From IMG/VR virus record IMGVR_UViG_3300008255_000137, positions 3,502 through 67,501 of that record: 64,000 bases of DNA; one strand, given 5' to 3'. Made by a program: the position numbers and the translations under genes. Below, piece after piece: positions 1 to 54,242 of this stretch (position 1 is its first letter; each line of letters begins with the position of its first letter). The DNA comes from a virus. Its lineage: Duplodnaviria > Caudoviricetes. Below the pieces are notes generated by a model, which was not told the DNA's origin, did no database searches, and worked only from the letters and a program-made list of their open reading frames with translations.

Positions 1-531
1 CTTCTTTTCTTTTTCACAAATATCTTTTAAAAACTTAAACATCTCCCTTGTGGATAAAGAAGAAACATAAAAAGTCGAGCATCGGTTTTTTATAGTGGCA
101 ATCAGCTTTTCCGGTTCAGTGGTACAAAGAATAAATCTCACATGCTTAGGAGTGTCTTCCAGAAACTTCAGCAGGGCGTGCTGGGCATCCGACGTTAATT
201 TTGCAGCCTCATCAAGTAGAAAGATTCTGCTCTGTCCTCTCATAGGAGCCAAAGACATCTGATGTCCAATTTCCCTTATGGTATCAATCCCTCTCACATT
301 TGCCACATTCAACTCAACAAAATCCTGATCAGAGCAGTCAAATCTTTTCTTGAGTATTCTTGCCAAAGTGGTTTTTCCGCAACCACTCGGACCGCAAAAC
401 AAAAAAGAATGAGGGATTCCCTTTTCTCGATCAGTGACCGATTTCAAAGATTGAAGCATAGAAGAATTTCCTACTACTTCATCAAATCTTTTAGGACGAT
501 ACTTCAGATGAAGGGGAAGCTTATCACTCAT
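1..531 (-). CDS. dnaX: DNA polymerase III gamma/tau-like clamp-loader AAA+ subunit (3' end outside window; missing from ORF track)
   Basis: Hand translation: MSDKLPLHLKYRPKRFDEVVGN...GPSGCGKTT (Walker A)...RIFLLDEAAKLTSDAQHALLKFLEDTPKHVRFILCTT. This is the typical DnaX N-terminal motif series. Confidence 0.9.
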   Translation of the reverse strand, partial: MSDKLPLHLKYRPKRFDEVVGNSSMLQSLKSVTDREKGIPHSFLFCGPSGCGKTTLARILKKRFDCSDQDFVELNVANVRGIDTIREIGHQMSLAPMRGQSRIFLLDEAAKLTSDAQHALLKFLEDTPKHVRFILCTTEPEKLIATIKNRCSTFYVSSLSTREMFKFLKDICEKEKK

Positions 532-3500: not shown

Positions 3501-4206
3501 CAATAATTCTATGAAGTCGGTCACAAACAGAATCAAAATCTTTGTCCACAGCAATCAATTTATCCAGATTCAAAATGGAAGGATGTTCTTTCTTTGTCTG
3601 GATATTTAAAAGGGCCTTCTTAATATCTCTTTCAAAAACAGAAGATAAATTTTCATCATGCTGATTTCTTAAAAGATAAGAAGGATGATACATCGGAAAG
3701 ATCCAGGCATTACTACCCAAATCGGGAATACAAAGACCCCTCCAACGATTTATAGAAAGATTGGTGAAATATCCTTGATAAAAAGATTCTATGGCTGCTC
3801 CTCCAAGAAGCCAAATGCACTTCGGTTTCGTTTCTTTTATAGTCTCTTCCACTTTGAATCTACAACATTTTAATTCTTTTCTGGTGGGTTTTCTGTTTTT
3901 TGGGGGCCTGCAATTCAAGGAGTTCACTTTCCAAAAGTCTCGATCTAAATCCAGATCATACTTTTTCAGTCTGTCCCTTAATAATTGGCCCGCTTCTCCA
4001 ATCAACTGAGTAGGCTCTTTATATCCAAGTTTCTTCCAATCTTCATCCTCCGATTTTCCAGGAGCCTCGCTTACAATAAGTATTCCCTTTCTTCCTTCTC
4101 CAGTATAACTCATTTTCGGAGATTTACATTTTTTATAAAGACCACATACCTCACAATTATTTTTTGTTTTAATTTCTTCTGCTTCTTTTTGAAAGAATCC
4201 TTCCAT
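547..4206 (-). CDS. polA: Family A DNA polymerase with N-terminal family-4 uracil-DNA-glycosylase-like domain, 3'-5' exonuclease and an intein
   Basis: UDG4 motifs EAPGxxED, NCRPPxNR, YHPSYLLR. Exonuclease motifs AFDYET, AHNLKFE, YCSKDA. Polymerase motifs EVDYSSLEVRIAA, VTNYPIQGTA, QIHDSIVF. Confidence 0.95.
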   Translation of the reverse strand: MEGFFQKEAEEIKTKNNCEVCGLYKKCKSPKMSYTGEGRKGILIVSEAPGKSEDEDWKKLGYKEPTQLIGEAGQLLRDRLKKYDLDLDRDFWKVNSLNCRPPKNRKPTRKELKCCRFKVEETIKETKPKCIWLLGGAAIESFYQGYFTNLSINRWRGLCIPDLGSNAWIFPMYHPSYLLRNQHDENLSSVFERDIKKALLNIQTKKEHPSILNLDKLIAVDKDFDSVCDRLHRIIERKTLIAFDYETSNLKPFGKDQKIWTIGVSESGSSFAFPYQYPHWNTSQTQEIGRLWKRILLDEKIEKVAHNLKFEDIWSRKFFGIDEVKGWKWCTMNGAHIEDNRDKFSGLKFQAYIKYGIYPYDSSVQRYISASTVEGRNSLDQVPLSDLLLYCSKDALLAYKLYEEDQTKLFERKKGLGKAYSFFHKGLLCLSQIQSGGISIDHPYYLAQNKKLGRKLKLLEKELCEGEESEKFKKKTKRDLNIRSDKDLRELLFSVMKMESKKSTGKGMDSVDKEALYGMDIPFVKKLLEMRKIDKIKGTYLAQFLREVIDGKIHPFFDLHTVKTYRSCVAKGTKILVLRDFVKYPEGVPIEKVRKGDHVYCFDDDLNPSIQKVIWAGKTGRREVIRIYFHGKKKKGKYIDVTPEHKIRLVSGEYVEAQYLTGDFRTKKQSKYSPKISVLSGVRQGDSLYFTGHTGKNNSRVMEHHFVYESLMERLSEGEIVHHKDGNHLNHELSNLQKMTAGDHARIHCRLDDQEIRRKNIEAVKKGWREGKYKNLIRRGFDHPRCLKLSKLEILRLLFKSRGKISAGGIGFSTFRTYLQLYNIQVDLIKIRFDSKGKYISKNRFIKLSKLGISKAQRELGHNYYKLEKLYKYFQIPFQRRWANQFGSFKVGNHCISKIEWTNKEVDVYDIEIEKYHNFIANEICVHNSSSRFNFQNIPVRDEQAKKITRRGIIPSSGNRICEVDYSSLEVRIAACYNQDENLIKYVTDPSSDMHRDTAMDIWKLPQKEISKPIRFYAKNNWVFPQFYGDWYKSCAESLWKNCLNLETNSGEKVKDHLKSVGLENYFQFETHCKKAENIFWNIRFKQYQKWKDKINKEYQKKGFIETFLGFRFQGYMSRKDVTNYPIQGTAFHCLLWSLIEIYSLFRRKNWKSKIMGQIHDSIVFDLCPDEEKEILPSVKYIMERKIRKVFDWIIVPLEAEFEVTPINGSWYEKKEIKV
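1423..2505 (-). mobile_element. Intein (361 aa, PolA residues 568-928) with embedded HNH endonuclease
   Basis: Starts CVAKGT, ends ICVHN, followed by Ser+1. Removing it restores KTYRS|SSSRFNFQNIP (the PolA TGRLSSxxPNxQNIP region). Internal HHKDGNHLNHELSNL...HARIH is an HNH motif. Confidence 0.93.
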
Positions 4207-4236: not shown

Positions 4237-5232
4237 TTATTTCTTTTTTCTTATTTCATAAAACTTCTCCCCCTTAGTACTATCTCTCCCAAATCCGCCC
4301 GATGGAGAATACTTTCCAAAAAAAACCCTTTTCAGGCGATATTTATCTTGAAAATTTTCTTTCAAGACATCCGATAATGGATAGACCCTATCTCCTAAAT
4401 TTATAACGAAAACCCCTTCTTGTTTTAAAGAAATCATTGTCTTTTCCACCAAAGGAATAAAAAATCCATTGATCCACTTTTCAAAAGACGGGTATCTATT
4501 TAAAGAATTGGTCTCCTCATCAGAATATACTTCTGTATCATAATAAGGCGGGGAAGTTAAAGCAAAATCATAAAAATTACTTTTTAAACGGGAATCTTCA
4601 AAGGGAAGCTTCCATATCTTTGCCGAAAATTCAGGATTCATTCCCTTTATAAAATCATACAATTTCAATAGTCCCTTGTATGTTTGAGTAGAAGGTTCAA
4701 ACGCTTCATATGTACTTCCCACAACGGAAGCCCCTATCATTCTTCCCCCCCACCCTCCACAAGGATCAAGAATTTTTCTCGTAGAATCCAACCCATAAAA
4801 CTTATAAATATCCCTTGCTAAATAAGGCGGGAATTCCTGAATGAAACCAACTCCCTGTACTCCAGCTTCTATATAAGTTAATAGCCCTCTTCTATTTTCG
4901 ATTCCTTTAAACAGGGCAACTCTTGCCATCCCGGAAACTACTCTCTTATCTTTTAAACCCTCAAATATAGAAATTCCCTTTGTACTATTTATACTTGAAG
5001 TGGATAATCGATGCGGATTAAAAAGAAGACTTGTTCTTATTCCTACATCCTGTCCATTCATCAACTTCCCATATTCTATACATTCATAAAACCTATTTGT
5101 AATAAAAGAAACAAACTCCTCCAAAGTAGCATCTTTCAAAACAGACCATAGTAATTCTGTAAGCTGGTCCCTGCTTATTGACTGATGAGAAACATCAAAG
5201 AACAATCCTTTTATTTTCCTTTTTGTAATCAT
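4237..5232 (-). CDS. DNA amino-methyltransferase (N6-A or N4-C)
   Basis: SAM-binding motif LDPCGGWGG followed by catalytic motif LTSPPYY. Confidence 0.85.
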   Translation of the reverse strand: MITKRKIKGLFFDVSHQSISRDQLTELLWSVLKDATLEEFVSFITNRFYECIEYGKLMNGQDVGIRTSLLFNPHRLSTSSINSTKGISIFEGLKDKRVVSGMARVALFKGIENRRGLLTYIEAGVQGVGFIQEFPPYLARDIYKFYGLDSTRKILDPCGGWGGRMIGASVVGSTYEAFEPSTQTYKGLLKLYDFIKGMNPEFSAKIWKLPFEDSRLKSNFYDFALTSPPYYDTEVYSDEETNSLNRYPSFEKWINGFFIPLVEKTMISLKQEGVFVINLGDRVYPLSDVLKENFQDKYRLKRVFFGKYSPSGGFGRDSTKGEKFYEIRKKK

Positions 5233-6302
5233 TTATCCTCGTCCACTTCTTTGTTAAAGAATAGCAAAACATGTTGAAAATTATCTGATACAAATAATCC
5301 CCGCCCTTCTCCACAAATCATAATGGTAGAATGATTCAAAATCTGAGAAAAAAACTTTGGATTTATATTAAAAAAGAAAGACTCCCCCTTGTATTTAAAG
5401 TCGATCTTTTTCTCTATCCATCCGGTTTCTTTCTTTCCTTTACATTTTATTCCCTCACTAGAAATAAGGACTTTTATAAATTGATCCGACTCAAAATCTC
5501 CTTCTGTGAAGAAAGAAACATCTTCAACGGCTTTCTTCAATTCCTTGGGCAATCGCAATTTTCTTCCCTCAACTTCCATAAACTTACTCACATCCGAAAA
5601 TTCATCCAGGGACCTTCTGCAACAGAAAACCAGTTTGTCCTTTTTAAAGTAAATCCAGGACTTGTCCAGACAATAATCAGTGAAACCAAACTTCAGTATT
5701 CCGGGAATAAATCTTCCGGGAATCAGAAAACTTTCACTGAATTTCTTTTCCACCTGATATCTACTGATACGGAAATTGTCTGTTCCTGATACAAAATTTC
5801 CATCGCATAAAACACACGACATCCATCCATGTAGAGCATGAGGAGATATGGAAAAGGAACAGAGATCAATGGCTTCATCAAAGTTTTTCGGAAGAGAATC
5901 CCATTTAATTTTCTCCATCTGAAAAGAAGGAGATTCATTGATGAAAAGACAAGAAACCGATTCCAATATGGATTCTGTATTGAATGTGGCCAGGGAAGCT
6001 CGGGTCTTATCAGTTCGAACCTTCAATTTATCTTTAGAAAAAACCAGATCAAACTCTTTGTCATCAATGTTAGAAACCACATTAAGAAGTTCCTTGGCAG
6101 GAACTGAACATTGAAAATCAGTTTCAAATGGAGAAAAAACAGCAATCTGATCATTGTAAGTAATCACATGGGTCCCGGAAAAAGTGAACAGATTCGATCC
6201 CTCTACCAGTCCCTTGTCCGAAAGACCCAAAGCACAATCCGACAAAATCTTCAGTAATTTTTCCTTTTCTACTTTCATAAATTTATTCCTTTCTGTATCC
6301 AA
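5229..6302 (-). CDS. dnaN: Beta sliding clamp-like protein
   Basis: 357 aa with a beta-clamp-like pattern (ITYNDQI, SVPAKELLNVV, SGTDNFRI, FNINPKFF); lies near PolA and the DnaX-like gene. Confidence 0.75.
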   Translation of the reverse strand: MDTERNKFMKVEKEKLLKILSDCALGLSDKGLVEGSNLFTFSGTHVITYNDQIAVFSPFETDFQCSVPAKELLNVVSNIDDKEFDLVFSKDKLKVRTDKTRASLATFNTESILESVSCLFINESPSFQMEKIKWDSLPKNFDEAIDLCSFSISPHALHGWMSCVLCDGNFVSGTDNFRISRYQVEKKFSESFLIPGRFIPGILKFGFTDYCLDKSWIYFKKDKLVFCCRRSLDEFSDVSKFMEVEGRKLRLPKELKKAVEDVSFFTEGDFESDQFIKVLISSEGIKCKGKKETGWIEKKIDFKYKGESFFFNINPKFFSQILNHSTIMICGEGRGLFVSDNFQHVLLFFNKEVDEDK

Positions 6303-7065
6303 AAATAGAATCTATCCTAACAGGATTCAGCTTTTTTTTATAAAAAGCCAACCCTTCATTTCCTAAATCTCCCCCATCATTGACCAACTTATTCTTATCA
6401 AAAACAAATTCTACATTCTCATAAAACAAAAGCCGCAAATACTCATTTAAAAAAGAAGTTCCATCATCTAAACAAAAACGAAAATAAATGTATTTCCAGT
6501 TTTCTTCTGCTACATTTATTCCTATCAACTTTCCATTCGTAAACAAACCCCAACGAAAATCAGAGAAAAATAAATAGTCAATCATCACCTCCGAGTCATA
6601 AATCTCTTTCTCCTTTTCTGACCAACCAAGAATCAAATTTTCTATTTCTTCTTCCCTTTCTCCTTCTTTCAATAAACGATAATCAAAATTTCCTTCAAAT
6701 CTTCTTCTGTACTTTTTGGAATTTTTTCTAAAAACTTGCCATTTGTTTCCAGACAAATCTTTAAAATTTTTCGAATCATAAATATACTGATAATCTAAAA
6801 ATATAGAATTTCCCAGACAATTTTTCTGATTGGGAAATCCGCAAAATACATTTTGATTCAAATCAAAAGAGTCTTTTCTTATATCAAAAGGACAAAAAAA
6901 CCACTCATTCAAATTAACATCTTCTTTGTATCCTAACAAAGTATCTTCCTGAACAAAAACCAATCTCTTATACTTCACATATGGATCAGTCATCCAAAAA
7001 TTTGGATTGTCCCTTTTTTTTATCTGATTCCAATAAATCTCTTCTTCCTTTTCTTTTGGCTCCAT
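6283..7065 (-). CDS. GNAT-fold protein, DUF2156 / aminoacyl-transferase-like
   Basis: C-terminal LFTNGKLIGIN...LVNDGGDLGNEGLAFYKKKLNP resembles the DUF2156 motif INREEDLGxxGLRxAK. Confidence 0.6.
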   Translation of the reverse strand: MEPKEKEEEIYWNQIKKRDNPNFWMTDPYVKYKRLVFVQEDTLLGYKEDVNLNEWFFCPFDIRKDSFDLNQNVFCGFPNQKNCLGNSIFLDYQYIYDSKNFKDLSGNKWQVFRKNSKKYRRRFEGNFDYRLLKEGEREEEIENLILGWSEKEKEIYDSEVMIDYLFFSDFRWGLFTNGKLIGINVAEENWKYIYFRFCLDDGTSFLNEYLRLLFYENVEFVFDKNKLVNDGGDLGNEGLAFYKKKLNPVRIDSIFGYRKE

Positions 7066-7136
7066 CAGACTTCCCTTTTATTCTGTCAATCAATTGTTTG
7101 CTGATTCCTCCCGATTTTCGACTCTTACCTCCCATT

Positions 7137-7838
7137 TTATTCTCCCCCCAACTCATCATATTTACATTTTGAGATTATTACAATCATTTTCATCTTTCCA
7201 CTTCGACTTTCCACCCAAACATAACCTGATTTTGTAAAATAAAAGTCAAAGCTTTCTACAAAAACAAACAAAGACAAAAAGTCTGCAGTTCTCAATCCTA
7301 TAGGAGAAAAATCACTAAGATTTCCTTCAGAGAAAAGCCCTAAATTATCTGAAGATCTTTTAGTTATTTTTATGACATTTCCAGAATATACATCCCTTTG
7401 AATTATTCTTAGTTTTTTATTCTTACAACTAAATTCAATATGACTCAAATCATTCTCCAAAAAAGAAAGAAAAAGATTTTCTATCACAGAATGATTTTCC
7501 TTCTTTAACTCAAAAGAGCCAAACAACTTCTGAACTTGATGAAAATCCAGATTTGGAACTTTACAATATTTTTTTCTCTCATAGTCCTTTTGTCTTTTTA
7601 CAAAACAAACGGAGTCCTTTTCTATCTCTATATGATTGCTATCATAATCATTAGAATAGAAGCTTATCGGTTGATCAAAATTATGTTGAGACAAACTAAA
7701 TTTAAAAAACAAGGTTTTGTCCTGATTCAGAATAAATATTTCCTTTCCATAGGCATAAATAGTACTCTTCAAATTTCCTTTTTGAAAAAGAGCCACAGAG
7801 TGAGAAAAAATATTTTCCACTTGATAACTTATTTTCAT
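7137..7838 (-). CDS. Hypothetical protein, possibly a PCNA/gp45-like two-domain clamp fold
   Basis: 233 aa with a beta-rich pattern loosely matching PCNA; recognised by eye only. Confidence 0.3.
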   Translation of the reverse strand: MKISYQVENIFSHSVALFQKGNLKSTIYAYGKEIFILNQDKTLFFKFSLSQHNFDQPISFYSNDYDSNHIEIEKDSVCFVKRQKDYERKKYCKVPNLDFHQVQKLFGSFELKKENHSVIENLFLSFLENDLSHIEFSCKNKKLRIIQRDVYSGNVIKITKRSSDNLGLFSEGNLSDFSPIGLRTADFLSLFVFVESFDFYFTKSGYVWVESRSGKMKMIVIISKCKYDELGGE

Positions 7839-7892
7839 TTTAATTTCCCTCCTCCTTTCTTAAATAAAAAGAGATTCTACCATCTTTTCTCG

Positions 7893-9260
7893 TTAATCTT
7901 CTTTTGAAGAATAATTCCAGACAATCCCATTCTTATCCCATCCAACTGATTCAATTCCAGAAGCCCATCCACAAGAGTAAGCTTCATTTCCTTCAAAATT
8001 CCATAACTCTTGAACCTCCCTCTCCAAAGATTCAGTAAGAAATCCTCCTTTACTATTCACCCATTCCCAAAAATCTTTCCATCCAACAGGTTTTTTTGCT
8101 TCCTTTATAAAACGAGCACAGTAAACAGTACATCCAAAATTGTACTGAGATTTTCCAAACCAATCTTCCACCTCGCAACAGATAGCTTGGTCATTTGAAG
8201 GAACATTCCCCATATCAAAAGTAGAACAGCTGAATCCTCTTTTTCGAAACATCTCCATAAATTTTCCTAATAACAAAGATCCTAATGGTTGAGAATCACA
8301 TCCAGCCAAAAAAATTCTCTCCCAATCAAATCCTTCATTGTAAAATGCCTGTCTTATTCCCGGACTATTAGCAGAGTAACTATATGTGTCAAAAGTAATA
8401 TTTTTCAATCCAATTGATTCCAAATCCTCCATGTATTTTTCAGTCTTATCTTTATCATCATTTATAAAAACCATAAAGGGCTCTATTCTTGCAACCACTC
8501 TTATTCCCTCTTGAATCAAATTTCTCATTGACTTCAATCGTCTTTCATAGGAAGGAGCTGCCGGTTCTATTTTTTTCAACAGATCATTATCAGAAGAAAT
8601 TAATGTAATATGTACTGCGGTCTTTCCCTTGTTGTCTTTAAGAACTTTTAAATAGTCATCATAACCAAGAATATCACTTTTAGTGTTTATCATCAAAGGA
8701 TATTCATTTTCCGACAAGTATTTTAAAAGATCCAAACTTATTCCTTTTTTCTTTTCTTTTAAAAGAAAATCTTCAAAACGAATTCCAAATCTCAAAGGCA
8801 TTTCCATACAAATTGCTTTTGAGATTCCAGAAAATGAATGAGGATCTTTTCCTCTAAAATTCATATATTTGTCCATCTGTTTTTTATACTTATCAGGATC
8901 ACAATGTCTCAATCCCCTTGTTTTTGAATTATCAAAAAAGGAAGTGTACAAAGAGGCCCTAAAGGAATTTGCAAAACAGTACAGACAATTGTAGGGACAA
9001 ACCAAACCGTCCCATACATCTATATTCAGTGGCATTGGACAAGCAGAAGCTCTACAAGATATTTCAATAAAGGAATTTATTTCTTCTAAATTCAAAAGTC
9101 TTTCCTGCTTCACATACTTCTTTTCAATTAAATTAAATTCCTCATATCCCGATTTTCTTCCTTTTTCTTTTACATATTTAACTTTGTCCCTCTGATTCAA
9201 AAGAGGAACCGTCCTTGGTATTATCTTTGCCACGTAACTTCTTAATTCATAATAATCCAT
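7893..9260 (-). CDS. Radical SAM protein, spore photoproduct lyase (SPL)/COG1533-like
   Basis: CPYNCLYC (CX3CX2C); INTKSD, IEPAAPSYERRL and ARIEPF are SPL-like segments. Confidence 0.85.
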   Translation of the reverse strand: MDYYELRSYVAKIIPRTVPLLNQRDKVKYVKEKGRKSGYEEFNLIEKKYVKQERLLNLEEINSFIEISCRASACPMPLNIDVWDGLVCPYNCLYCFANSFRASLYTSFFDNSKTRGLRHCDPDKYKKQMDKYMNFRGKDPHSFSGISKAICMEMPLRFGIRFEDFLLKEKKKGISLDLLKYLSENEYPLMINTKSDILGYDDYLKVLKDNKGKTAVHITLISSDNDLLKKIEPAAPSYERRLKSMRNLIQEGIRVVARIEPFMVFINDDKDKTEKYMEDLESIGLKNITFDTYSYSANSPGIRQAFYNEGFDWERIFLAGCDSQPLGSLLLGKFMEMFRKRGFSCSTFDMGNVPSNDQAICCEVEDWFGKSQYNFGCTVYCARFIKEAKKPVGWKDFWEWVNSKGGFLTESLEREVQELWNFEGNEAYSCGWASGIESVGWDKNGIVWNYSSKED

Positions 9261-9303
9261 ACAAAATCCTATTTATTTAATTTAATAAATTTTTGAATTA
9301 TAT

Positions 9304-10383
9304 TTACAATACATCATTAAAAGTGTAAAATTTAGTCTCTTGTCCTTTTATTATTTTTTCAGCCAGATTCTTGTCACCAAATCCCTGAAAAGACTCTTGG
9401 AGTATTTTCCTCCAATCTTTTTCTCCATTTTGTAATCTCTTTTTCCAATGATGAGTATTGAAGGTGGAGGGAGCCAAAACATTTATTCCACAACAAGTAT
9501 TGGCTTTTTCCTTCCATTTCCATCCCGTATTAACAAAATCTGGACAACCTAAAATCATATTTTCTTTCTCCGATATTTGAAGAAGTCTCTTCAAAATTTT
9601 TTTCCATTTCGAGTCCTGATTATAATACCATATTTTTTCTATGTCCACTCCTATTTTATGAAGATTTTTAGCTACAAGATCATTAAAATGAAGATTGTAC
9701 ACATTATAACTTTTCACTCCACAATCTTTAATTCTTAACAAAGTCTCTCGAAAATCACTATAGTCATGAAATCCTGGAATGAAAGGTTCCCCATTCACCC
9801 CTACAGAAAATCCTCTCTTCAAAAGTTGTTTTATTATATAAAATCGTTTCTCAATCGAAGTAGTTCTTTTTCTTTCAAACAATTCCCAATCTCTTTCCAA
9901 TCCAGGAGACACTACAGGAAGAAAAACAAACAACCGCTTTTTATCATCGAAAAATAAATCCATATCTCTCATAAGATTATGAAGAAAACGAGTTTGAATA
10001 ACAAAAGACCACTCCAGCTTTATCAAAATCTTTACTATCTGTCTTGTTATTTTATAATGTCTCTCCGCTTCTTGATAAGGATCTGATCGACTTCCCAATC
10101 TTATTGTTATTTTATTTTTCAAAGCCCATGCTTTATAAGATTTGGGATTTGTATTTTTAACTGATGATCTCAACTTTTTCTCTATGGAAAGAGGATCTGC
10201 CGGACGCAGATCCTCCCCCCATGTTCGATTAAGTCTTCTAAATCCGCAATGATAGCAATAAGTAAGACAATTGAAATAACTATCTATGGAAAGAGGAAGA
10301 GGACAATACAAACAATCTCCCCGAAGACCTATTGAAGATTTATAGATTTTGTTTTTATTTGAAATGATAGTTTCCTTTTTCAT
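9304..10383 (-). CDS. Second SPL-like radical SAM protein (paralog of the neighbouring gene)
   Basis: CLTYCYHC; LGSRSDPYQEAERHYKITR, GEPFIPG. Shares the CPxPLxID motif upstream of the cysteine cluster with 7893..9260. Confidence 0.85.
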   Translation of the reverse strand: MKKETIISNKNKIYKSSIGLRGDCLYCPLPLSIDSYFNCLTYCYHCGFRRLNRTWGEDLRPADPLSIEKKLRSSVKNTNPKSYKAWALKNKITIRLGSRSDPYQEAERHYKITRQIVKILIKLEWSFVIQTRFLHNLMRDMDLFFDDKKRLFVFLPVVSPGLERDWELFERKRTTSIEKRFYIIKQLLKRGFSVGVNGEPFIPGFHDYSDFRETLLRIKDCGVKSYNVYNLHFNDLVAKNLHKIGVDIEKIWYYNQDSKWKKILKRLLQISEKENMILGCPDFVNTGWKWKEKANTCCGINVLAPSTFNTHHWKKRLQNGEKDWRKILQESFQGFGDKNLAEKIIKGQETKFYTFNDVL

Positions 10384-11473
10384 CTATTTCTACGAAATCA
10401 ATAAGGACCATAACTCTTTCGACTCTTCCTACATTCAATGCTGCCCATTTAGAAACATCTTTAGTGGCCCTTCCTCCTCCTTCCCGGAAAATATTTTCGG
10501 CTTTCTCAACGGATTGCTTTTTATTCTTTGACTTCAAAATGGCTTGAGTACATGCATCAATCCAAGAAATTCTTTTTTCGGACTCTTTTTTCTCCTTTTT
10601 TGGTCCTTTCTCTTTCTTAATTTTCTTCGTTTCCTTTTCCTTTTTTTCAACCGACTTCTTTTCCTTTACAACTTCCTCTTTTTCTTCAACCTCCTCTTCT
10701 TCTGCCCCAATTTCTTCAGTTTCTTCCTCTTCAGTTTCTTCTGCTTCTTCCTCTTCTGCTTCAGAACTCAAAGCATTGTAAACCTCAATGACCTCCTCCG
10801 GAAGCTCCTCCTCATGATCATCCACCACCGCTTCCACTGAACTCAAAAAAGTCTCATAAACATCTTCTTTTTTCTTTCCCACAATTTTGATTTTATCTTC
10901 AACAAATTCCAGTTCATTGAAGGCCTTTACCGCTTTTTTCAGATCACCAAATTTTACTTTCTCAGCCATTTTCTTCTTCCTTTCTTCTCGTTGATTTTTT
11001 AAAACTTCTTTTACGCTCACCGGGCGACCATTAAGAACACTCACCCTTTCTGAATTTCCCCATAAATTATTGGAGGGTTTGTTACCTATTTTCAAACCAA
11101 AACCGAAGCCTCTTAGGGGTTTCAAATTTTCAGATGACAAAATAATATTGTAAATATGCTCCAACAAAGACTCTCTTCCATCAAATCTTCTTTTTAAAAA
11201 CCTCCTTTCCGCTTTTGTAATAAATCTGGAGAAGCCTGATTTGACGGATTTATTACAAAAATACTTTCTTTCCTGACTGAACTGACAAACAATCTTGGTA
11301 CACTCATAATAAAATTCTTTCAGTGATTTAAAAGACCAGTAAACCAGGTTCATTTCCAAACCTAATAAAAACAACTCAGACAGATAAAGTTCTGGACATT
11401 CTTTTGTTACATTAAGCTCACCTCCATTCACCAATATTCGAGGGAAATCCTCCACTAAAATCGTCCTTCTCAT
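10355..11473 (-). CDS. Hypothetical protein with Glu-rich then Lys-rich low-complexity region
   Basis: 372-aa ORF with EEEEAEETEEEE tract. A plausible internal start at MAEKVK suggests two fused units. Confidence 0.6.
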   Translation of the reverse strand: MRRTILVEDFPRILVNGGELNVTKECPELYLSELFLLGLEMNLVYWSFKSLKEFYYECTKIVCQFSQERKYFCNKSVKSGFSRFITKAERRFLKRRFDGRESLLEHIYNIILSSENLKPLRGFGFGLKIGNKPSNNLWGNSERVSVLNGRPVSVKEVLKNQREERKKKMAEKVKFGDLKKAVKAFNELEFVEDKIKIVGKKKEDVYETFLSSVEAVVDDHEEELPEEVIEVYNALSSEAEEEEAEETEEEETEEIGAEEEEVEEKEEVVKEKKSVEKKEKETKKIKKEKGPKKEKKESEKRISWIDACTQAILKSKNKKQSVEKAENIFREGGGRATKDVSKWAALNVGRVERVMVLIDFVEIDEKGNYHFK

Positions 11474-11502
11474 TTATATTATAATCGACTTTTCAGATTT
11501 TT

Positions 11503-11715
11503 TCATAATTTTTCCACCTTTTCCAGAAATAAAAAACCATGACCAGAAAGTCCTTTAGTTTTCCGAACCTCCTGATTCAGTTGACCCAAATCAGCCAACA
11601 AAAACTTTCTTTTAGCCAGTCTTTCCGACTTGGCCTGAATAAACATCTGGTGCTTCCAAGTAATTACAAATAACTTTCTTTTTTCCATAGATTTTAAATT
11701 TCCACTTTGTTCCAA
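11503..11715 (-). CDS. Hypothetical protein
   Basis: 70-aa ORF packed between neighbours. Confidence 0.5.
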   Translation of the reverse strand: MEQSGNLKSMEKRKLFVITWKHQMFIQAKSERLAKRKFLLADLGQLNQEVRKTKGLSGHGFLFLEKVEKL

Positions 11716-12494
11716 ACCTCAAAACTCAATAACTCCTCTGCTGTAAAAAATCTTCCGGTAAAAGTCGTTGCTCGATCATCAATGGTTAAAAACGCAGCAG
11801 GTTTATGAATAGGAAATCGAATTTGATCCAGTTCTACTTTAGTCATTCCATACTTCAAAAGCCACTCCTTCATTACCTGAACCCCTATGGCACTTCTATT
11901 TCTAGACGAAAAAATACAAACCTGAAATTTTTCAGATTTAATCAGTTCTTTCAGCCAGTCAATGGAAGTCTCAGAATGAGAATAGATTGGTAGACTATAT
12001 TTTTCTACTGATACAGGAGCATCAGAAATTACATCTATTCCCTTCCATCCGGATTTATAACTATGAATCACCCCATCAAAATCAATGCAAAGTATAGGCA
12101 AGGTCATATCTTCTTTTTCCTCTTCCTGTTCCAGTATCTTTTGAAGTCGAGCCAAAGCATTCCAAGCAGCATGGGCCGCATGAAGAAGATTCGATCCAGG
12201 ATCATACTCCTCCCCTCTGGCTTCATCCATTAAATGACGATACATCGCATCTGTATAGCGATTTATCGGATCAGGAACGTGTGCCCAACTTCCCGGAGAA
12301 TACTCCTTTGCCCCATAAGTTCCCACCTCCCCAACAGCATACAATGCCCTGGCAAATCCATTCAGAACCAAACCCAGTCTATTCTTTCCGAAATCCATTT
12401 TTGCTCCCAGTTCTTTCTTTGATTTTCCAAAAGGATCTTTCTCTTCCATTAATGTTCTTCCTCTTTTTTTAATTGAATCTTTTCCTTTAGCCAA
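11694..12494 (-). CDS. dATP/dGTP diphosphohydrolase-like (DUF5664) domain fused to a HAD-family phosphatase
   Basis: N-terminal KMDFGK..VGTYGAKEY..RYTDAMYRHL..LLHAAHAAWNAL; C-terminal CIDFDGVIHSY (HAD motif I) and TIDDRA. Confidence 0.8.
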   Translation of the reverse strand: MAKGKDSIKKRGRTLMEEKDPFGKSKKELGAKMDFGKNRLGLVLNGFARALYAVGEVGTYGAKEYSPGSWAHVPDPINRYTDAMYRHLMDEARGEEYDPGSNLLHAAHAAWNALARLQKILEQEEEKEDMTLPILCIDFDGVIHSYKSGWKGIDVISDAPVSVEKYSLPIYSHSETSIDWLKELIKSEKFQVCIFSSRNRSAIGVQVMKEWLLKYGMTKVELDQIRFPIHKPAAFLTIDDRATTFTGRFFTAEELLSFEVWNKVEI

Positions 12495-12688
12495 TCCTTT
12501 TCCTCAATTTGTTCCTCACACTCCCCAACACAATAGGGACAAGATTCTCTCGTAGAATCAAACTCACATTTATGAATTAAACATTTGCAAATTCTTTCTT
12601 CTCTCAAAACAATCCAGAAATGACTTTTGTCTTCAAGCTTTTCCTGATTTATCCGAGTATAAATTGAATGCAACAAAGGTTCTTTCAT
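12449..12688 (-). CDS. Small Cys-containing hypothetical protein
   Basis: CxxHxC...CPYC; coupled to queE. Confidence 0.5.
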   Translation of the reverse strand: MKEPLLHSIYTRINQEKLEDKSHFWIVLREERICKCLIHKCEFDSTRESCPYCVGECEEQIEEKDWLKEKIQLKKEEEH

Positions 12689-13422
12689 TAATGTTCCTCC
12701 ACCTTTCCTTTCTTTTTAAAGTAAATTTCAGGCCAGATATACTTATGAATCTGTAAATTAAATACGGCAAAAACATTATCTCTCAACATCCAGTTGGCAA
12801 GAACGCTCGGCCCTCCCCTTCCTCCCCTTCCCCTTTTCAGTGGAATCATCGGAGAAAAAGCCACATTGCAATGTTCGAAATCATCATATTCTTCCATGAC
12901 TTTCAAAGCAAATTGATAGTCCTCCTTGCTCGCGACCACAAACTTCACCCAATCACAAGGACGAAGTTTTCCAAAATTATCTTTGTCCATTTTCCGATGA
13001 GCGCCCGAACTCGGAAGTTTGTAATCCACCACCCAACAATCAGGAGCAACATCTTTCTGCATCGGTATAGGCAAGGAACCATTCGTCTCGACTGAAACCC
13101 TCTTTCCTTCCCGTTTTAACTTCACAATCAATTCCAATAAACCGTCCTTTTGAAATAAGGGCTCCCCACCAGTGATTGTAGCCTTATTGAAAAAGGGATA
13201 ACTATTGTCAACATATCTTAAAAGACTGTTGACCAGCATTCGCTTTCCTTGTCGCTTTCGATGAGCATAAAGCGTATCACAATAAGAGCAAGGAGGATTC
13301 ATATTGCATCCGGCAAAACGAATGAATAAGGTAGGTGCTCCTTGATAGAAACAGTTTACCTCGCCATCAAAACTTCGAAAAGTAGAGTATATCCAAAATA
13401 ACATATCTCTCTCCTTTCTCAA
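12688..13422 (-). CDS. queE: 7-carboxy-7-deazaguanine synthase-like radical SAM protein
   Basis: FDGE...GAPTLFIRFAGCNMNPPCSYCDT, TITGGEPL, VETNGS, DYKLPSSG, KFVV, LQIHKYIW. Confidence 0.88.
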   Translation of the reverse strand: MRKERDMLFWIYSTFRSFDGEVNCFYQGAPTLFIRFAGCNMNPPCSYCDTLYAHRKRQGKRMLVNSLLRYVDNSYPFFNKATITGGEPLFQKDGLLELIVKLKREGKRVSVETNGSLPIPMQKDVAPDCWVVDYKLPSSGAHRKMDKDNFGKLRPCDWVKFVVASKEDYQFALKVMEEYDDFEHCNVAFSPMIPLKRGRGGRGGPSVLANWMLRDNVFAVFNLQIHKYIWPEIYFKKKGKVEEH

Positions 13423-14984
13423 ATATCTTTTTCTTTTCTTCGACTACTTTTGAAATCTGAAAAACTCCAACTCCATTCTGAATCCAATAAAGGATGCCCT
13501 ACTTCCAATTGTTGAAAAACCAAAACCTGTTTCTCCTGATTAAAAAACTTATGCCGATGAGCCACCAGTCCCAGTCGACAAATTCCTTTGATTTTCTCCT
13601 GAGGGGTCTGGTTTATTCCTATCATCACATCTACATGGGCAATCTTCCGAATATCTTCTGCCGTGTCCACTTCGCTCAAATTCTTTTTACTGATAGAAGA
13701 TCGATTGGATTGACTGGCAGTAAAGACAACGCAATGTTTTATTGCGGCCAACTTTTTAAGATTTTTCCAGATGTCATCAATCACTCCTCTCTCAGAAAGT
13801 CCTCGGGAACTCGGAGAAAGAATATCGGCATAATCCACCACAATCACATCTGGAACGACCCCCTCCATATACTCCAAATTGTCAAGCTCCCTTTCAAGAT
13901 CATCCACTGATGCCGTGAAAGCCGGATAACTGACCAACCTCATTTTCCGTTTGAAAACTTTGGTGAAACGAGAAATTTTCTCCTCAATCAATTTCTTACT
14001 TTTACTCACATCAAATTCATCCGATTGAATCCACCAAACAGAGGGCTTAAAATACTTCTCATTTCTACAAACTGCACAGACCGTATGAGATACTCCAGAA
14101 TCAAAAGAATCCAGAACATCTCCATCTTTAGTCAGAATATTACTGTCACTGATCCTATTTTTTCTTTTACAGGAACCATCTTGATTTTCAAGACAATCCA
14201 GAATTGGGAAAAGAATCCGATTTTTATGAGAGGGAATTCCAGCAATCCTCCGATAGATTCTTTCCTCCATCATCTCTAAACTCATCTCCAATGAAACAAA
14301 TAAAACCTTCAGTCCGGAAAACAAAGCCTGAATAGCAATCTCCTGAAGCCAATAGCTCTTGCCGCGCTTCATGGGACCCATGAAAGAAACAAACCAGGTT
14401 CTCTCCAAGTCTCCTATCAACTCCCCAGCTCGGCCAGGAAGAGACAAAAGAGATTCCTTTTCCCTGCTCAAAACTTCTTTAACTCTTTTCGGATCTAAAG
14501 GGTCCACCCAGTTACCCACAATGTTAGAAATTTTTCCATAATTGACTACTTGATTTTCTGCAATATCCACTTTTCCACTGGCAATCAGTCCTAATCCTCT
14601 TTCAAACAACAGATACAAGGATTGTTTCCTAAAGTATTCCTGAGCCTGATCCAGCACATATTGATAGTTGAAAGAACCTTGTTGTTCATACTCCTCAGAT
14701 ATCCGAGAAAGAAAAGAAGCCACAATGTCCTTGTTTTCTTCTCCCAGTTCCTCTTTCTCAGAATTAAAAATATCCTGAATCTGCTTTCCCGGAGCATGAT
14801 GGTATCTCTCATAATAATCCAGAACCCAAGATAAAACCGTTCGAACATACTCGGACTGAATATACTCGGGCTTGTACATTCGGTAAACTTCCCGACAAAA
14901 TTCTGTAGAAACTATTCCCGCAGTGGCTATCTTTTTTTCGACATCCCCCTTGAATACCTTTCTTCCGGCCAGTCGTAAGGACAT
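13419..14984 (-). CDS. dnaB: DnaB-like replicative helicase
   Basis: Walker A GPMKRGKS, VSLEM, VIVVDYADIL, TASQSNR; internal Cys-rich insert. Confidence 0.9.
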   Translation of the reverse strand: MSLRLAGRKVFKGDVEKKIATAGIVSTEFCREVYRMYKPEYIQSEYVRTVLSWVLDYYERYHHAPGKQIQDIFNSEKEELGEENKDIVASFLSRISEEYEQQGSFNYQYVLDQAQEYFRKQSLYLLFERGLGLIASGKVDIAENQVVNYGKISNIVGNWVDPLDPKRVKEVLSREKESLLSLPGRAGELIGDLERTWFVSFMGPMKRGKSYWLQEIAIQALFSGLKVLFVSLEMSLEMMEERIYRRIAGIPSHKNRILFPILDCLENQDGSCKRKNRISDSNILTKDGDVLDSFDSGVSHTVCAVCRNEKYFKPSVWWIQSDEFDVSKSKKLIEEKISRFTKVFKRKMRLVSYPAFTASVDDLERELDNLEYMEGVVPDVIVVDYADILSPSSRGLSERGVIDDIWKNLKKLAAIKHCVVFTASQSNRSSISKKNLSEVDTAEDIRKIAHVDVMIGINQTPQEKIKGICRLGLVAHRHKFFNQEKQVLVFQQLEVGHPLLDSEWSWSFSDFKSSRRKEKDI

Positions 14985-53605: not shown

Positions 53606-54241
53606 TCATGACTTATACCCTGGTTGATCCAACAACTTCTTTCTTATCATTGTTAATCCCACATTCCATGCCGAGTGTGGAAAAGTAAAAACATTCCATA
53701 AGTCTTCTCTTCCTTCTAAAAACTTTCTCAAACGATAAACATCTCCACATCGACTCGGTCCTAAATACTCATCATTCAGTGGCATTGTGTCATGAAGAAA
53801 AATATAACCACCAGGAACAGTCAATTCAAAAGCATTATCAAAATCCCTTTTCACTTGAAGAAATTCATGTTCACCATCAATAAAAGTCAAAGCAATAGGA
53901 GTGAATTTTATATTCTTGAAAAAATTATCGGATGAATTACAAATAATTACTGCATCATCATTAAAATATCCTCCTACTGTTTTACAATTCTCAATAACAC
54001 TTCTCTGGATATCACAATGATATACTTTTCGATGATATTTTTTAGCAAGCCAGGAAAGATAAATTGAGGTTTCACAGACTCCAACTTCAATAATATCTCC
54101 CTTAATATAATGAAGAACAAAGTCAGAAAGCATTCCGAATAATCCCCATCTCTCCCATTTGATGTTCTCAGAATATGGAAAGGACTTCCAAGAAGAAGGA
54201 TTTACATAATCCATCAATTCTCTTGATCCGGGGTGCTCCAC
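53606..54241 (-). CDS. Class I SAM O-methyltransferase (Methyltransf_24/TylF-like)
   Basis: IIEVGVCE, FIDGEH, IFLHD. Confidence 0.85.
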   Translation of the reverse strand: MEHPGSRELMDYVNPSSWKSFPYSENIKWERWGLFGMLSDFVLHYIKGDIIEVGVCETSIYLSWLAKKYHRKVYHCDIQRSVIENCKTVGGYFNDDAVIICNSSDNFFKNIKFTPIALTFIDGEHEFLQVKRDFDNAFELTVPGGYIFLHDTMPLNDEYLGPSRCGDVYRLRKFLEGREDLWNVFTFPHSAWNVGLTMIRKKLLDQPGYKS

Positions 54242-54242
54242 T

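What the first reader, a model, noticed from the sequence alone, without database searches (positions are those of the whole stretch)
4237..13422. Candidate undescribed DNA base-modification pathway: paired SPL-like radical SAMs, GNAT/aminoacyl-transferase-like protein, methyltransferase, QueE and a dNTP pyrophosphohydrolase-HAD fusion
Seen: these genes are interleaved with PolA and the clamp genes in one replication operon. Established: QueE makes the 7-deazaguanine precursor used by dpd phages. DUF5664-type enzymes deplete canonical purine dNTPs in some modified-base phages. Radical SAM and amino-acid-transfer enzymes build hypermodified thymidines in phages such as M6 and ViI. Inference: two non-identical SPL-like paralogs next to a DUF2156-like GNAT match no characterised pathway I know, and may together install a new base.
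Basis: partly seen in the sequence, partly recalled or inferred. Interest (0 to 1): 0.75.

Follow-up and report, generated by a model that had tools for sequence, protein, structure and literature searches.

The report
Replisome-linked radical-SAM DNA hypermodification module
An uncultured groundwater phage carries, inside its DNA-replication operon, a four-gene set (two radical-SAM enzymes, a sliding-clamp-like protein, an aminoacyl-tRNA-transferase-like protein) that is conserved across a large phage clade, is partly related to the phage M6 thymidine-hypermodification enzymes, and lacks every known upstream enzyme of that pathway.

Summary
They are not one pathway.

- **Conserved core.** In 85 related loci, only four genes travel together, in fixed order between DnaB and the clamp/PolA genes. 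These are rSAM P6, rSAM P5, P4 and P3.
- **P4** folds as a PCNA/gp45-type two-domain clamp.
- **P3** folds as a DUF2156/MprF/FemX-type tandem GNAT.
- **Add-ons.** QueE, the pyrophosphohydrolase-HAD fusion and the methyltransferase occur in 0, 0 and 4 of those loci. They are shared only with the closest relative.
- **Link to a known pathway.** About half of the relatives carry, next to P6, a PLP enzyme 47% identical to phage M6 gp52, the Cα-GlyT decarboxylase. P6 is the closest match to M6 gp53, the radical-SAM isomerase.
- **Missing upstream steps.** 5-hmdU DNA kinase and amino-acid:DNA transferase are absent from 22 of 22 genomes. Thymidylate-synthase-type hydroxymethylase is absent from 9 of 10 complete genomes.

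Best reading: a post-replicative DNA base hypermodification module with new upstream chemistry, possibly clamp-tethered. The product and target base are unknown. The window itself lacks the decarboxylase.

The parts
9304..10383 (-). P6. [quoted passage not shown]
   Evidence: PA0069/Rv2578c-like at 56 bits. Family A4 against M6 gp53: hhalign 96.8% with E 2.8e-10, hmmsearch E 6.5e-7, blastp 24% with E 7e-7. Found in 69 of 86 loci.
7893..9260 (-). P5. Radical SAM (CPYNCLYC), core gene 2. Paralog of P6 with extra conserved cysteines (C74, C120, C361/C362). It is the most conserved protein of the block.
   Evidence: Pfam PF04055 at E 1.8e-11. 556 homologs, the top 120 at 58-75% identity. Alignment A1 has 67% mean column identity. 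Paralogy with P6 is shown. Some homologs carry inteins.
7137..7838 (-). P4. Two-domain sliding-clamp-fold protein (PCNA/gp45/beta-clamp-like), core gene 3.
   Evidence: AF2 pLDDT 91.1. Foldseek matches PCNA at probability 1.0. In VIA, the top 38 hits are all clamps, with Z 10-15.3. A three-copy model scored ipSAE 0.63 against a best control of 0.02. Found in 78 of 86 loci.
6283..7065 (-). P3. Tandem-GNAT protein of the DUF2156/MprF-C/FemX fold (aminoacyl-tRNA-dependent transferase fold), core gene 4.
   Evidence: AF2 pLDDT 94.5. Foldseek: 2hqy at E 2.4e-11 and TM 0.69, followed by aa-PG synthases, FemX, Sbb17 and ATE1. The family profile against 2hqy gives E 2e-4. Present in 22 of 22 genomes.
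10355..11473 (-). P7. The C-terminal half belongs to the acidic 'c1' family that precedes P6 in most relatives. The N-terminal ~167 aa is specific to this lineage. Function unknown.
   Evidence: The A5 profile hits the L086 ortholog at E 1.4e-17 and the window. c1 is in 62 of 86 loci. No Pfam, PDB or Atlas lead.
5229..6302 (-). P2. DnaN-type three-domain sliding clamp. The true start is probably the ATG at 6278.
   Evidence: phrog_947 at E 4.6e-34 and TIGR00663 at E 6e-12. Found in 66 of 85 loci.
4237..5232 (-). P1. Orphan DNA amino-methyltransferase (DPCGGWGG ... SPPY). Lineage-variable add-on.
   Evidence: PF01555 at 21 bits and phrog_498. Motifs seen. Found in 4 of 85 loci.
11694..12494 (-). 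P8. dNTP pyrophosphohydrolase (PF18909) fused to a HAD phosphatase (DFDGV). The start is probably at 12449. Add-on cassette.
   Evidence: PF18909 at E 2.6e-23. 71% identical in L086. Found in 0 of 85 other loci. Elsewhere the two domains occur as separate genes.
12688..13422 (-). P10. QueE-like radical SAM (7-carboxy-7-deazaguanine synthase family). Add-on cassette.
   Evidence: TIGR03963 at 144 bits (cut-off 260), TIGR04349 at 142 bits, phrog_2076 at E 1e-31. 53% identical in L086, where it sits next to a genuine QueD.
12449..12688 (-). P9. 79-aa Cys-rich ORF between QueE and P8. Unknown. L086 carries a DUF5662 gene at this position instead.
11503..11715 (-). 70-aa ORF conserved with L086 (77% identity). 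Unknown.
547..4206 (-). PolA. It has an N-terminal family-4 UDG domain, a 3'-5' exonuclease, and an intein/HNH insert at about 1425-2391.
   Evidence: The L086 ortholog lacks the insert.
1..531 (-). Clamp-loader AAA+ subunit (5' part; runs off the window).
   Evidence: PF13177 at E 3.9e-25.
13419..14984 (-). DnaB-like replicative helicase. It marks the upstream border of the block.
   Evidence: Found in 67 of 85 loci.

Best explanation
The finding contains two separable things.

**1. A conserved four-gene core, P6-P5-P4-P3 (6283-10383), preceded by the acidic protein P7.** I read it as a post-replicative DNA base hypermodification module built into the replisome operon of a large clade of uncultured tailed phages.

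By homology:
- P6 is the counterpart of M6 gp53, the SPL-like radical-SAM enzyme that rearranges an amino acid attached to thymine in DNA.
- About half of the relatives add a gp52-type PLP decarboxylase next to it. Others add a SAM-methyltransferase-like protein or an aldo-keto reductase as tailoring enzymes.

Inferred:
- The clade lacks the hydroxymethylase, the 5-hmdU DNA kinase and the amino-acid:DNA transferase that start all known thymidine hypermodifications. P5, P3 and P4 therefore supply the upstream steps.
- P5 activates the base by hydrogen abstraction, most plausibly at the thymine C5-methyl. This is the allylic radical that SPL chemistry handles.
- P3 brings in or extends an amino acid, probably from aminoacyl-tRNA.
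- P4 forms a PCNA-like ring that keeps the enzymes on newly made DNA.
- The window has no decarboxylase, so its product would keep the carboxylate, as an amino-acid-type adduct.

**2. A lineage-specific cassette, QueE - P9 - P8 (plus QueD and DUF5662 in relative L086), and the methyltransferase P1.** These are independent add-ons.
- QueE and QueD point to 7-carboxy-7-deazaguanine synthesis.
- P8 points to destruction of a canonical dNTP.
- The rest of a deazaguanine-to-DNA route is not on this contig.
For: **Co-occurrence and synteny.**
- tblastn of window proteins against 85 related loci found P5 in 85, P4 in 81, P6 in 76 and P3 in 72.
- The order is always DnaB-...-P6-...-P5-P4-P3-clamp-PolA.
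- Profile-based architecture over 86 loci is c1-P6-[MT-like]-[PLP]-P5-P4-P3.
- P3 is in 22 of 22 genomes.
- A distant lineage, L095, keeps P6-P5-x-x-P3.

**Conservation.** Median identity is 58% for P5, against 39% for PolA and 31% for DnaB.

**Link to M6.**
- The PLP family A6 against M6 gp52 gives hmmsearch E 2.8e-90, and blastp 46.8% over 284 aa with E 6e-80, with hits in 49 loci.
- P6 against gp53 is given.
- The functions of gp52 and gp53 were shown experimentally in PMC8989533.

**Variable tailoring genes** are inserted next to P6: PLP in 44 loci, MT-like in 19, AKR in about 10, DUF362 in 4.

**Folds.** P4 is a clamp. Its three-copy model scored ipSAE 0.63, best of 3 controls 0.02. That mark was reached by 20 of 30 solved one-chain pairs and 1 of 23 single chains. 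Runs agree in at least 80% of contacts, and partner pLDDT is at least 79. This pass may reflect likeness to solved PCNA rings. P3 has the aa-tRNA-transferase fold.

**Not true SPL.** There is no SPL model among the NCBIfam hits and no SPL chain in the PDB profile searches.

**Known upstream enzymes absent.**
- PF18748 is in 0 of 22 genomes and PF18724 in 0 of 22, while M6 as positive control rings.
- PF00303 is in 3 of 21 genomes, and in 1 of 10 complete ones.

**Separateness of the add-ons** is shown.
Against: - No chemistry is shown. The target base, the amino acid, tRNA dependence, and even DNA rather than nucleotide as the substrate are all inferred.
- The window itself lacks the gp52-type gene, so its strongest tie to hypermodification is by way of relatives.
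- The similarity of P6 to gp53 is remote (24% identity, radical-SAM core only). I ran no matched control against true SPL by the same profile-profile method.
- P4 has invariant polar residues (H132, E134, Q146, D185, C224, Y226), which is unusual for a clamp. The ring-closing third interface was not among the confident contacts.
- A strictly conserved, replisome-embedded module that is more conserved than the polymerase is atypical for anti-restriction modification islands. This would also fit a repair or replication role.
- Absence of hydroxymethylase, kinase and transferase rests on HMM searches. Very divergent analogs could be missed.
- The TET/JBP search had no positive control.
Confidence: 0.55

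Rival explanations
1. Replication-coupled DNA repair. P5 and P6 are SPL-like radical-SAM lyases that reverse a DNA lesion (a photoproduct-type or other radical-reparable crosslink) on the phage genome. They would be tethered by the P4 clamp, with P3 as an accessory.
For: - P5 and P6 fall in the COG1533 'DNA repair photolyase' superfamily.
- They sit in the replisome operon beside a PolA that carries an apparently intact family-4 UDG domain.
- The module is universal and highly conserved in the clade, as housekeeping functions are.
- SplB-type genes are SOS-regulated in some bacteria (PMC8565304).
Against: - The gp52-type PLP decarboxylase, the SAM-MT-like protein and the AKR genes inserted between the two radical SAMs have no role in lesion reversal.
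- An aa-tRNA-transferase fold has no repair precedent.
- There is no match to true SPL models or structures.
- The holders are aquifer and groundwater metagenomes, where I assume UV photoproducts are unlikely.
Confidence: 0.15
2. Nucleotide-level or small-molecule biosynthesis. The radical SAMs, P3 and the tailoring enzymes make a modified dNTP, cofactor or nucleoside-like metabolite before polymerisation. P4 is simply a second processivity factor for the replisome.
For: - Fem/DUF2156-type enzymes act on small molecules in natural-product pathways, for example the Sbb17 and MprF hits.
- The window lineage adds dNTP-pool enzymes (P8) and QueE next to the module.
- Two clamp-fold proteins plus one clamp loader could all be replisome parts.
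Against: - M6 gp52 and gp53, the only characterised relatives, act on DNA-embedded substrates (PMC8989533).
- P4 is always placed between P5 and P3, not beside the clamp loader.
- No nucleotide kinase or glycosyltransferase is conserved in the block.
Confidence: 0.12
3. All seven genes (two radical SAMs, GNAT, MTase, QueE, pyrophosphohydrolase-HAD) cooperate in one pathway that installs one new base, for example an amino-acid-decorated 7-deazapurine.
For: - All are contiguous and co-directional in this window.
- The closest relative, L086, also has QueD/QueE/P8 immediately upstream of the core.
- P8-type enzymes remove canonical purine dNTPs in Z-genome phages, according to the Pfam PF18909 description.
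Against: - QueE and P8 are absent from 85 of 85 other loci that carry the core, and P1 is in only 4.
- Relatives of P8 in other phages have no QueE nearby.
- The contig has no QueC, QueD, FolE, DpdA, DUF6610 or PurZ.
- Every phage known to carry 7-deazaguanine DNA encodes a DpdA (PMC10516641).
Confidence: 0.08

Closest known systems
Pseudomonas phage M6 5-NedU pathway (gp51 ADDT, gp52 PLP decarboxylase, gp53 radical-SAM isomerase, gp54 5-hmdU DNA kinase; PMC8989533)
   Same: It has an SPL-like radical SAM related to P6 and, in about half of the clade, an adjacent PLP enzyme 47% identical to gp52. Variable tailoring enzymes surround a core. The genes lie near the replication genes.
   Different: - There is no 5-hmdU DNA kinase, no amino-acid:DNA transferase and generally no hydroxymethylase.
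- There is a second radical-SAM paralog, a clamp-fold protein and an aa-tRNA-transferase-fold protein instead.
- The module is universal and syntenic in the replisome operon.
- The window itself has no gp52 homolog.
Spore photoproduct lyase (SplB) and the COG1533 families PA0069 / Rv2578c / 'radical SAM mobile pair'
   Same: Same radical-SAM superfamily and CxxxCxxC placement. The substrate is expected to be DNA-directed. Paired paralogs recall the 'mobile pair' families.
   Different: Scores are far below every family cut-off (35-56 bits against 360-430). There is no hit to SPL structures. P5 and P6 have their own conserved CPxPL and C-terminal CC motifs.
DUF2156 / MprF C-terminal aminoacyl-PG synthase / FemX / Sbb17 aminoacyl-tRNA-dependent transferases
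   Same: P3 shares the tandem-GNAT fold (TM 0.57-0.69). It has many conserved basic residues.
   Different: At 260 aa it is smaller, and it falls below the Pfam threshold. It has no membrane domain. Its context is a phage replisome. Donor and acceptor are unknown.
Sliding clamps (PCNA, T4 gp45, beta clamp, 9-1-1)
   Same: P4 has the two-domain clamp fold (Z up to 15.3) and a predicted head-to-tail strand-strand interface.
   Different: It coexists with a canonical DnaN-type clamp in the same operon. It carries invariant polar and Cys residues. It is encoded between a radical SAM and a GNAT-like gene.
Phage 7-deazaguanine (Dpd) systems, including the CDG-only phiST/CP220 type with DpdA3 and a MazG/dUTPase neighbour (PMC10516641)
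   Same: It has a QueE-like gene (plus a true QueD in L086) next to a dNTP pyrophosphohydrolase and the polymerase genes.
   Different: No DpdA of any detectable type, and no FolE, QueC or DpdL, is on the 67.5-kb contig. The contig is rated only 49% complete.

Membership tests
M6-type thymidine hypermodification pathway | 5-hmdU DNA kinase (PF18748 / PF18723) | tested here: not met
   Present in 0 of 22 genomes, including the window's own contig and 10 genomes that are at least 90% complete. M6 as positive control rings at E 1.1e-19.
M6-type thymidine hypermodification pathway | Amino acid:DNA transferase (aGPT-Pplase / ADDT, PF18724) | tested here: not met
   Present in 0 of 22 genomes. M6 as positive control rings at E 2.3e-48.
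M6-type thymidine hypermodification pathway | dUMP hydroxymethylase (thymidylate synthase family, PF00303) to supply 5-hmdU | tested here: not met
   Absent from G000. Present in 3 of 21 relatives and only 1 of 10 complete genomes.
M6-type thymidine hypermodification pathway | gp53-type SPL-like radical-SAM isomerase | tested here: met
   P6 family against M6 gp53: hhalign 96.8% with E 2.8e-10, hmmsearch E 6.5e-7. The homology is remote, and the function was not tested.
M6-type thymidine hypermodification pathway | gp52-type PLP-dependent decarboxylase | tested here: not met
   Not in G000. Present next to P6 in 44 of 86 related loci at up to 47% identity to gp52.
Spore photoproduct lyase (SplB) | Sequence membership in the SPL family or similarity to solved SPL | tested here: not met
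   No SPL model appears among the NCBIfam hits at E <= 0.01. No SPL chain appears in the PDB profile searches at E <= 1 (P5 family) or E <= 5 (P6 family). Only superfamily-level likeness is seen.
Spore photoproduct lyase (SplB) | Catalytic H-donor Cys and Tyr relay at SPL positions | not tested
Radical SAM superfamily | CxxxCxxC cluster motif and PF04055 match | tested here: met
   P5 has CPYNCLYC and PF04055 at 45 bits. P6 has CLTYCYHC. Both motifs are invariant in the families.
DUF2156 / aa-tRNA-dependent aminoacyl transferases | Tandem GNAT fold | tested here: met
   Model pLDDT 94.5. 2hqy at E 2.4e-11 and TM 0.69. MprF, FemX and Sbb17 hits at probability 1.0.
DUF2156 / aa-tRNA-dependent aminoacyl transferases | Pfam PF09924 gathering score | tested here: not met
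   15.5 bits against a cut-off of 27.5. The family profile against 2hqy gives E 2e-4.
DUF2156 / aa-tRNA-dependent aminoacyl transferases | Use of aminoacyl-tRNA as donor | not testable with these tools
   The window has no phage tRNA. A biochemical assay is needed.
Sliding clamp (PCNA/gp45 type) | Two-domain clamp fold | tested here: met
   In VIA the top 38 hits are all clamps, Z 10-15.3, rmsd 3.2-5.2 A over 198-219 residues. Foldseek gives probability 1.0.
Sliding clamp (PCNA/gp45 type) | Closed head-to-tail trimeric ring | tested here: inconclusive
   The three-copy model scored ipSAE 0.63 against a best control of 0.02. Two head-to-tail interfaces (residues 80-92 with 151-161) are confident. 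The third is not listed.
Phage 7-deazaguanine DNA modification (Dpd) | DpdA/TGT-family transglycosylase (the signature protein) | tested here: inconclusive
   PF01702 and PF20314 are absent from G000. However, DpdA3 is reported as detectable only by HHpred (PMC10516641), and the contig is rated 49% complete.
Phage 7-deazaguanine DNA modification (Dpd) | FolE, QueD, QueE, QueC precursor genes | tested here: not met
   Only a QueE-like gene is present, below the equivalog cut-offs. FolE, QueD and QueC are absent from G000. A true QueD (CxxxHGH) is present in L086.
dATP/dGTP diphosphohydrolase (PF18909) | Pfam gathering score | tested here: met
   82.3 bits against a cut-off of 27. Substrate specificity was not tested.
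Z-genome (PurZ) system | PurZ (adenylosuccinate synthetase family) | tested here: not met
   PF00709 is absent from G000.

The most novel reading that the evidence does not exclude
The core is an oxygen-independent route to hypermodified DNA that does not pass through 5-hmdU. A radical-SAM enzyme (P5) directly activates a canonical base in duplex DNA, namely the thymine methyl C-H. An aminoacyl-tRNA-dependent transferase (P3) supplies the amino acid. A gp53-like isomerase (P6) finishes the adduct. All of them ride on a dedicated PCNA-like ring (P4) loaded behind the replication fork. This would be the first tRNA-dependent and the first clamp-coupled DNA base modification.
Probability: 0.15. 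Interest if true: 0.92.

Novelty: new variant of a known kind. Interest (0 to 1): 0.72.

Why it matters
All thymidine hypermodifications described in the papers read here (PMC8989533, PMC11472151, PMC13458397) start from 5-hmdU, a DNA kinase and an amino-acid:DNA transferase.

This phage clade is very large and environmentally widespread:
- More than 550 90%-identity clusters of P5.
- 114 IMG/VR contigs.
- Complete genomes of 65-97 kb.

The clade keeps homologs of the downstream M6 enzymes. It replaces every upstream step with a second radical SAM, a clamp-fold protein and an aa-tRNA-transferase-fold protein, all hard-wired into the replisome operon.

If the reading holds, three things follow:
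- A new entry point to DNA hypermodification that works without oxygen.
- A new use of aminoacyl-tRNA.
- A way to couple base modification to replication.

It would also mean that DNA from these phages in anoxic metagenomes may be chemically non-canonical. That matters for sequencing bias and for restriction and defence biology.

No member is in the searched phage-genome collection. The clade would be missed by surveys anchored on the 5-hmdU kinase.

Tried and rejected
- **DNA and protein searches of 50,697 phage records.** There was no nucleotide match. P3 had none. P5 and P6 hit only one 5.5-kb fecal fragment at 24-25% identity. No cultured relative exists in that collection.
- **Single-sequence scan of viral contigs with P5.** This found nothing. 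The alignment-based scan was needed.
- **PDB sequence-profile searches.** P5, P4, P6 and c1 gave nothing usable.
- **Species-genome scan.** It returned only 5 MAG contigs assigned to unrelated phyla. I read these as phage contigs put in the wrong bins, so there is no host call.
- **Sequencing runs.** The holders are aquifer and groundwater metagenomes kept only as contigs. No RNA holder is listed.
- **tRNA and Rfam scans of the window.** Both were empty.
- **Fused forms of P3.** The search for longer fused forms found none, which is weak evidence.
- **Atlas searches.** P4 gave only unnamed viral clusters, with a 10% gp45 hint. The P7 N-terminus gave nothing.
- **Candidate DpdA3.** phmmer of ACP17 neighbours of QueE against all ORFs found nothing. 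This is uninformative, because which ACP17 gene is DpdA was not established.
- **TET/JBP search.** The result was 0 of 22 genomes, but without a positive control.
- **P8 relatives.** The pyrophosphohydrolase and HAD domains occur as separate genes, and none has QueE nearby.
- **Uracil-DNA precursor idea.** I rejected it. The UDG domain fused to PolA keeps family-4 motifs (SEAPG, HPSYLLR), which I take from memory of that family.
- **Promoter and terminator scan.** Counts were at the shuffle expectation.

Full report
**Source and layout**

The window is 64 kb of a 67.5-kb IMG/VR viral contig that CheckV rates 49% complete. The best holders among public runs are aquifer and groundwater metagenomes.

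All genes of interest lie on the minus strand with overlaps or short gaps. A consensus scan shows no terminator or promoter signal beyond the shuffle expectation.

Reading downstream on the minus strand, from coordinate 14984 down to 1, the order is:
- DnaB-like helicase (13419-14984)
- QueE-like (12688-13422)
- a 79-aa Cys-rich ORF (12449-12688)
- PF18909 pyrophosphohydrolase fused to a HAD domain (11694-12494)
- a 70-aa ORF (11503-11715)
- P7 (10355-11473)
- radical SAM P6 (9304-10383)
- radical SAM P5 (7893-9260)
- P4 (7137-7838)
- P3 (6283-7065)
- DnaN-like clamp (5229-6302)
- amino-methyltransferase P1 (4237-5232)
- PolA with an N-terminal family-4 UDG domain and an intein/HNH insert (547-4206)
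- clamp loader (1-531)

These calls rest.

**Which genes belong together**

P5 has more than 550 metagenomic homologs, and the top 120 are 58-75% identical. A profile scan of IMG/VR found 114 contigs, of which 80 were fetched. I ran tblastn of every window protein against the 85 loci held at that point.

| Protein | Loci with a match (of 85) |
|---|---|
| P5 | 85 |
| P4 | 81 |
| P6 | 76 |
| P3 | 72 |
| DnaB | 67 |
| clamp | 66 |
| PolA | 64 |
| P1 | 4 |
| QueE | 0 |
| P8 | 0 |
| P7 | 0 |
| P9 | 0 |

- The order DnaB ... P6 ... P5-P4-P3 ... clamp ... PolA is invariant.
- With family profiles, the architecture over 86 non-redundant loci is c1-P6-[MT-like]-[PLP]-P5-P4-P3. P7's C-terminal half turns out to be the 'c1' family that tblastn missed.
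- P3 is in 22 of 22 genomes that carry P5, ten of them at least 90% complete and 65-97 kb long, some with terminal repeats.
- A distant lineage, L095, still has P6-P5-x-x-P3.
- P5 is more conserved (median 58%) than PolA (39%) or DnaB (31%). Some P5 homologs carry inteins.

**The add-ons**

- Only the closest relative, L086 (P5 75% identical), shares QueE (53%), P8 (71%), the 70-aa ORF and P7.
- In L086 the cassette is DnaB-QueD-QueE-DUF5662-P8. Its QueD has the CxxxHGH motif of true QueD.
- The window contig has no QueD, QueC, FolE, TGT/DpdA, DUF6610 or PurZ.
- Every phage known to carry 7-deazaguanine DNA encodes a DpdA. The DpdA3 type is reported to be visible only to HHpred (PMC10516641). 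A deazaguanine route therefore cannot be excluded on a half genome, but it is not shown.
- Relatives of P8 elsewhere carry the pyrophosphohydrolase and HAD domains as separate genes, and none has QueE nearby.

**What the core proteins are**

- **P5 and P6** are paralogs. hhalign gives 98.3% with E 2e-14. They share CPxPL, CxxxCxxC and a C-terminal CC motif.
  - They match only the uncharacterised PA0069, Rv2578c and 'mobile pair' families of the SPL-like superfamily, far below cut-off.
  - They do not match SPL models or SPL structures.
- **P4** modelled at pLDDT 91.
  - It matches only sliding clamps, with Z up to 15.3, followed by a sharp drop after 38 clamp entries.
  - Three copies gave ipSAE 0.63, against a best of 0.02 among 3 controls. 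That mark was reached by 20 of 30 solved one-chain pairs and 1 of 23 single chains. Runs agree in at least 80% of contacts, and partner pLDDT is at least 79.
  - The contact is a head-to-tail strand pairing of residues 80-92 with 151-161. The ring-closing interface is not among the confident contacts, and the pass may reflect memory of PCNA rings.
  - The family has invariant H132, E134, Q146, D185, C224 and Y226. This is odd for a clamp and remains unexplained.
- **P3** modelled at pLDDT 94.5.
  - Its best matches are DUF2156 (2hqy, E 2.4e-11), aminoacyl-PG synthases, FemX, Sbb17 and ATE1. All of these are aminoacyl-tRNA-dependent transferases.

**The link to a known pathway**

I took a census of non-core ORFs between DnaB and PolA.
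- A PLP (PALP) enzyme was in 37 of 77 loci by clustering, and in 44 of 86 with the profile. It is always next to P6.
- The census also found an unknown 240-aa family with SAM-methyltransferase-like motifs, an aldo-keto reductase, DUF362 and N6/N4 methylases.
- The PLP profile hits the ORF just upstream of gp53 in Pseudomonas phage M6 at E 2.8e-90. blastp gives 46.8% over 284 aa with E 6e-80. That ORF is gp52, shown experimentally to decarboxylate C-alpha-GlyT to 5-NedU in DNA.
- gp53 is the SPL-like radical-SAM isomerase that makes C-alpha-GlyT (PMC8989533). P6 is the closer paralog to gp53. For P6, hhalign gives 96.8% with E 2.8e-10 and hmmsearch gives E 6.5e-7. For P5, hhalign gives 69% and hmmsearch gives E 4e-3.
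- The adjacent pair of radical SAM and PLP enzyme is therefore shared with a proven DNA hypermodification cluster.

**What is missing**

- The M6 upstream enzymes are absent. PF18748 (5-hmdU DNA kinase) and PF18724 (amino acid:DNA transferase) are in 0 of 22 genomes, and both ring in M6 as positive control.
- The thymidylate-synthase family is in 3 of 21 genomes, 1 of 10 complete ones, and not in the window contig.
- TET/JBP was not found, but that search had no positive control.
- The window itself has no gp52 homolog. It belongs to the 19 of 69 loci in which P6 and P5 are directly adjacent.

**Interpretation**

*Shown:*
- The gene content and the conserved tetrad.
- The folds of P4 and P3.
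- The paralogy of P5 and P6.
- The homology of the relatives' PLP gene to gp52, and the remote homology of P6 to gp53.
- The absence of the known upstream enzymes.
- The non-co-occurrence of QueE, P8 and P1 with the core.

*Inferred:*
- The tetrad modifies a base in DNA after replication.
- P5 provides the base-activating radical step that replaces the 5-hmdU, kinase and transferase route.
- P3 delivers or extends an amino acid from aminoacyl-tRNA.
- P4 tethers the enzymes to DNA.
- The window's product keeps its carboxylate.

*Confidence:*
- About 0.55 that the core is a DNA hypermodification module.
- About 0.15 for the specific direct-activation, tRNA-dependent, clamp-coupled mechanism.

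**Novelty**

Full-text searches found no description of this gene set. The published metagenome survey of thymidine hypermodification was anchored on the 5-hmdU kinase, which this clade lacks. I rate it a new variant of a known kind.

Noticed in passing
window 547-4206 (intein about 1425-2391): PolA is a fusion of a family-4 UDG-like domain (SEAPG and HPSYLLR motifs present), a 3'-5' exonuclease and the polymerase. It is interrupted by an intein with an HNH endonuclease. The 843-aa ortholog in L086 lacks the insert.
   Followed up: partly
window 53606-63945: A long co-directional sugar-modification cluster: two Methyltransf_24 proteins, a DegT/DnrJ/EryC1 aminotransferase, a CmcI-type O-methyltransferase, a 962-aa protein with a GT1 domain, further methyltransferases, and GT1- and GT2-like proteins. 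It could glycosylate virion proteins, host surface glycans or DNA. It is not linked to the core by synteny.
   Followed up: no
P5 homologs P0014, P0123, P0126, P0149, P0150; loci L067, L080, L082, L083: Several P5 homologs are 590-851 aa with two matched stretches, or are split into two P5 hits. P0014 carries Hint and intein Pfam domains. Inteins usually sit in essential replication-type proteins.
   Followed up: partly
G007:C1:44266-45024 and G001:C1:37314-38078 (P3 homologs): Each has one in-frame TGA inside an otherwise full-length P3 match. This could be a sequencing error or a sign that some clade members use a code with TGA read as a residue.
   Followed up: no
window 7137-7838 (P4 family, alignment A2): A clamp-fold protein with invariant H132, E134, Q146, D185, C224 and Y226 and near-invariant C91. 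These residues suggest a ligand or catalytic site that ordinary clamps do not have.
   Followed up: partly
window 10355-11473 and alignment A5: The acidic 'c1' family has a conserved N-terminal helix, an E/D/K-rich low-complexity middle and a conserved C-terminal R...GG.N motif. It precedes P6 in 62 of 86 loci. In the window and L086 it is fused to an extra 167-aa N-terminal domain with no detectable relatives.
   Followed up: partly
window 15012-16451: A 479-aa protein between primase and DnaB has no family match. It is 59% identical in L086 and found in only 1 of 85 other loci.
   Followed up: no
L013, L044, L056, L058: In these relatives the P6 position is occupied by a radical SAM that scores better with the P5 profile than with the P6 profile. 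The upstream paralog has therefore been replaced or has diverged strongly in some lineages.
   Followed up: no
L086:19539-19964 and L086:18169-19365: The closest relative encodes a NADAR-domain protein and a gp32-like SSB downstream of the clamp loader. The corresponding region lies beyond the window's start.
   Followed up: no
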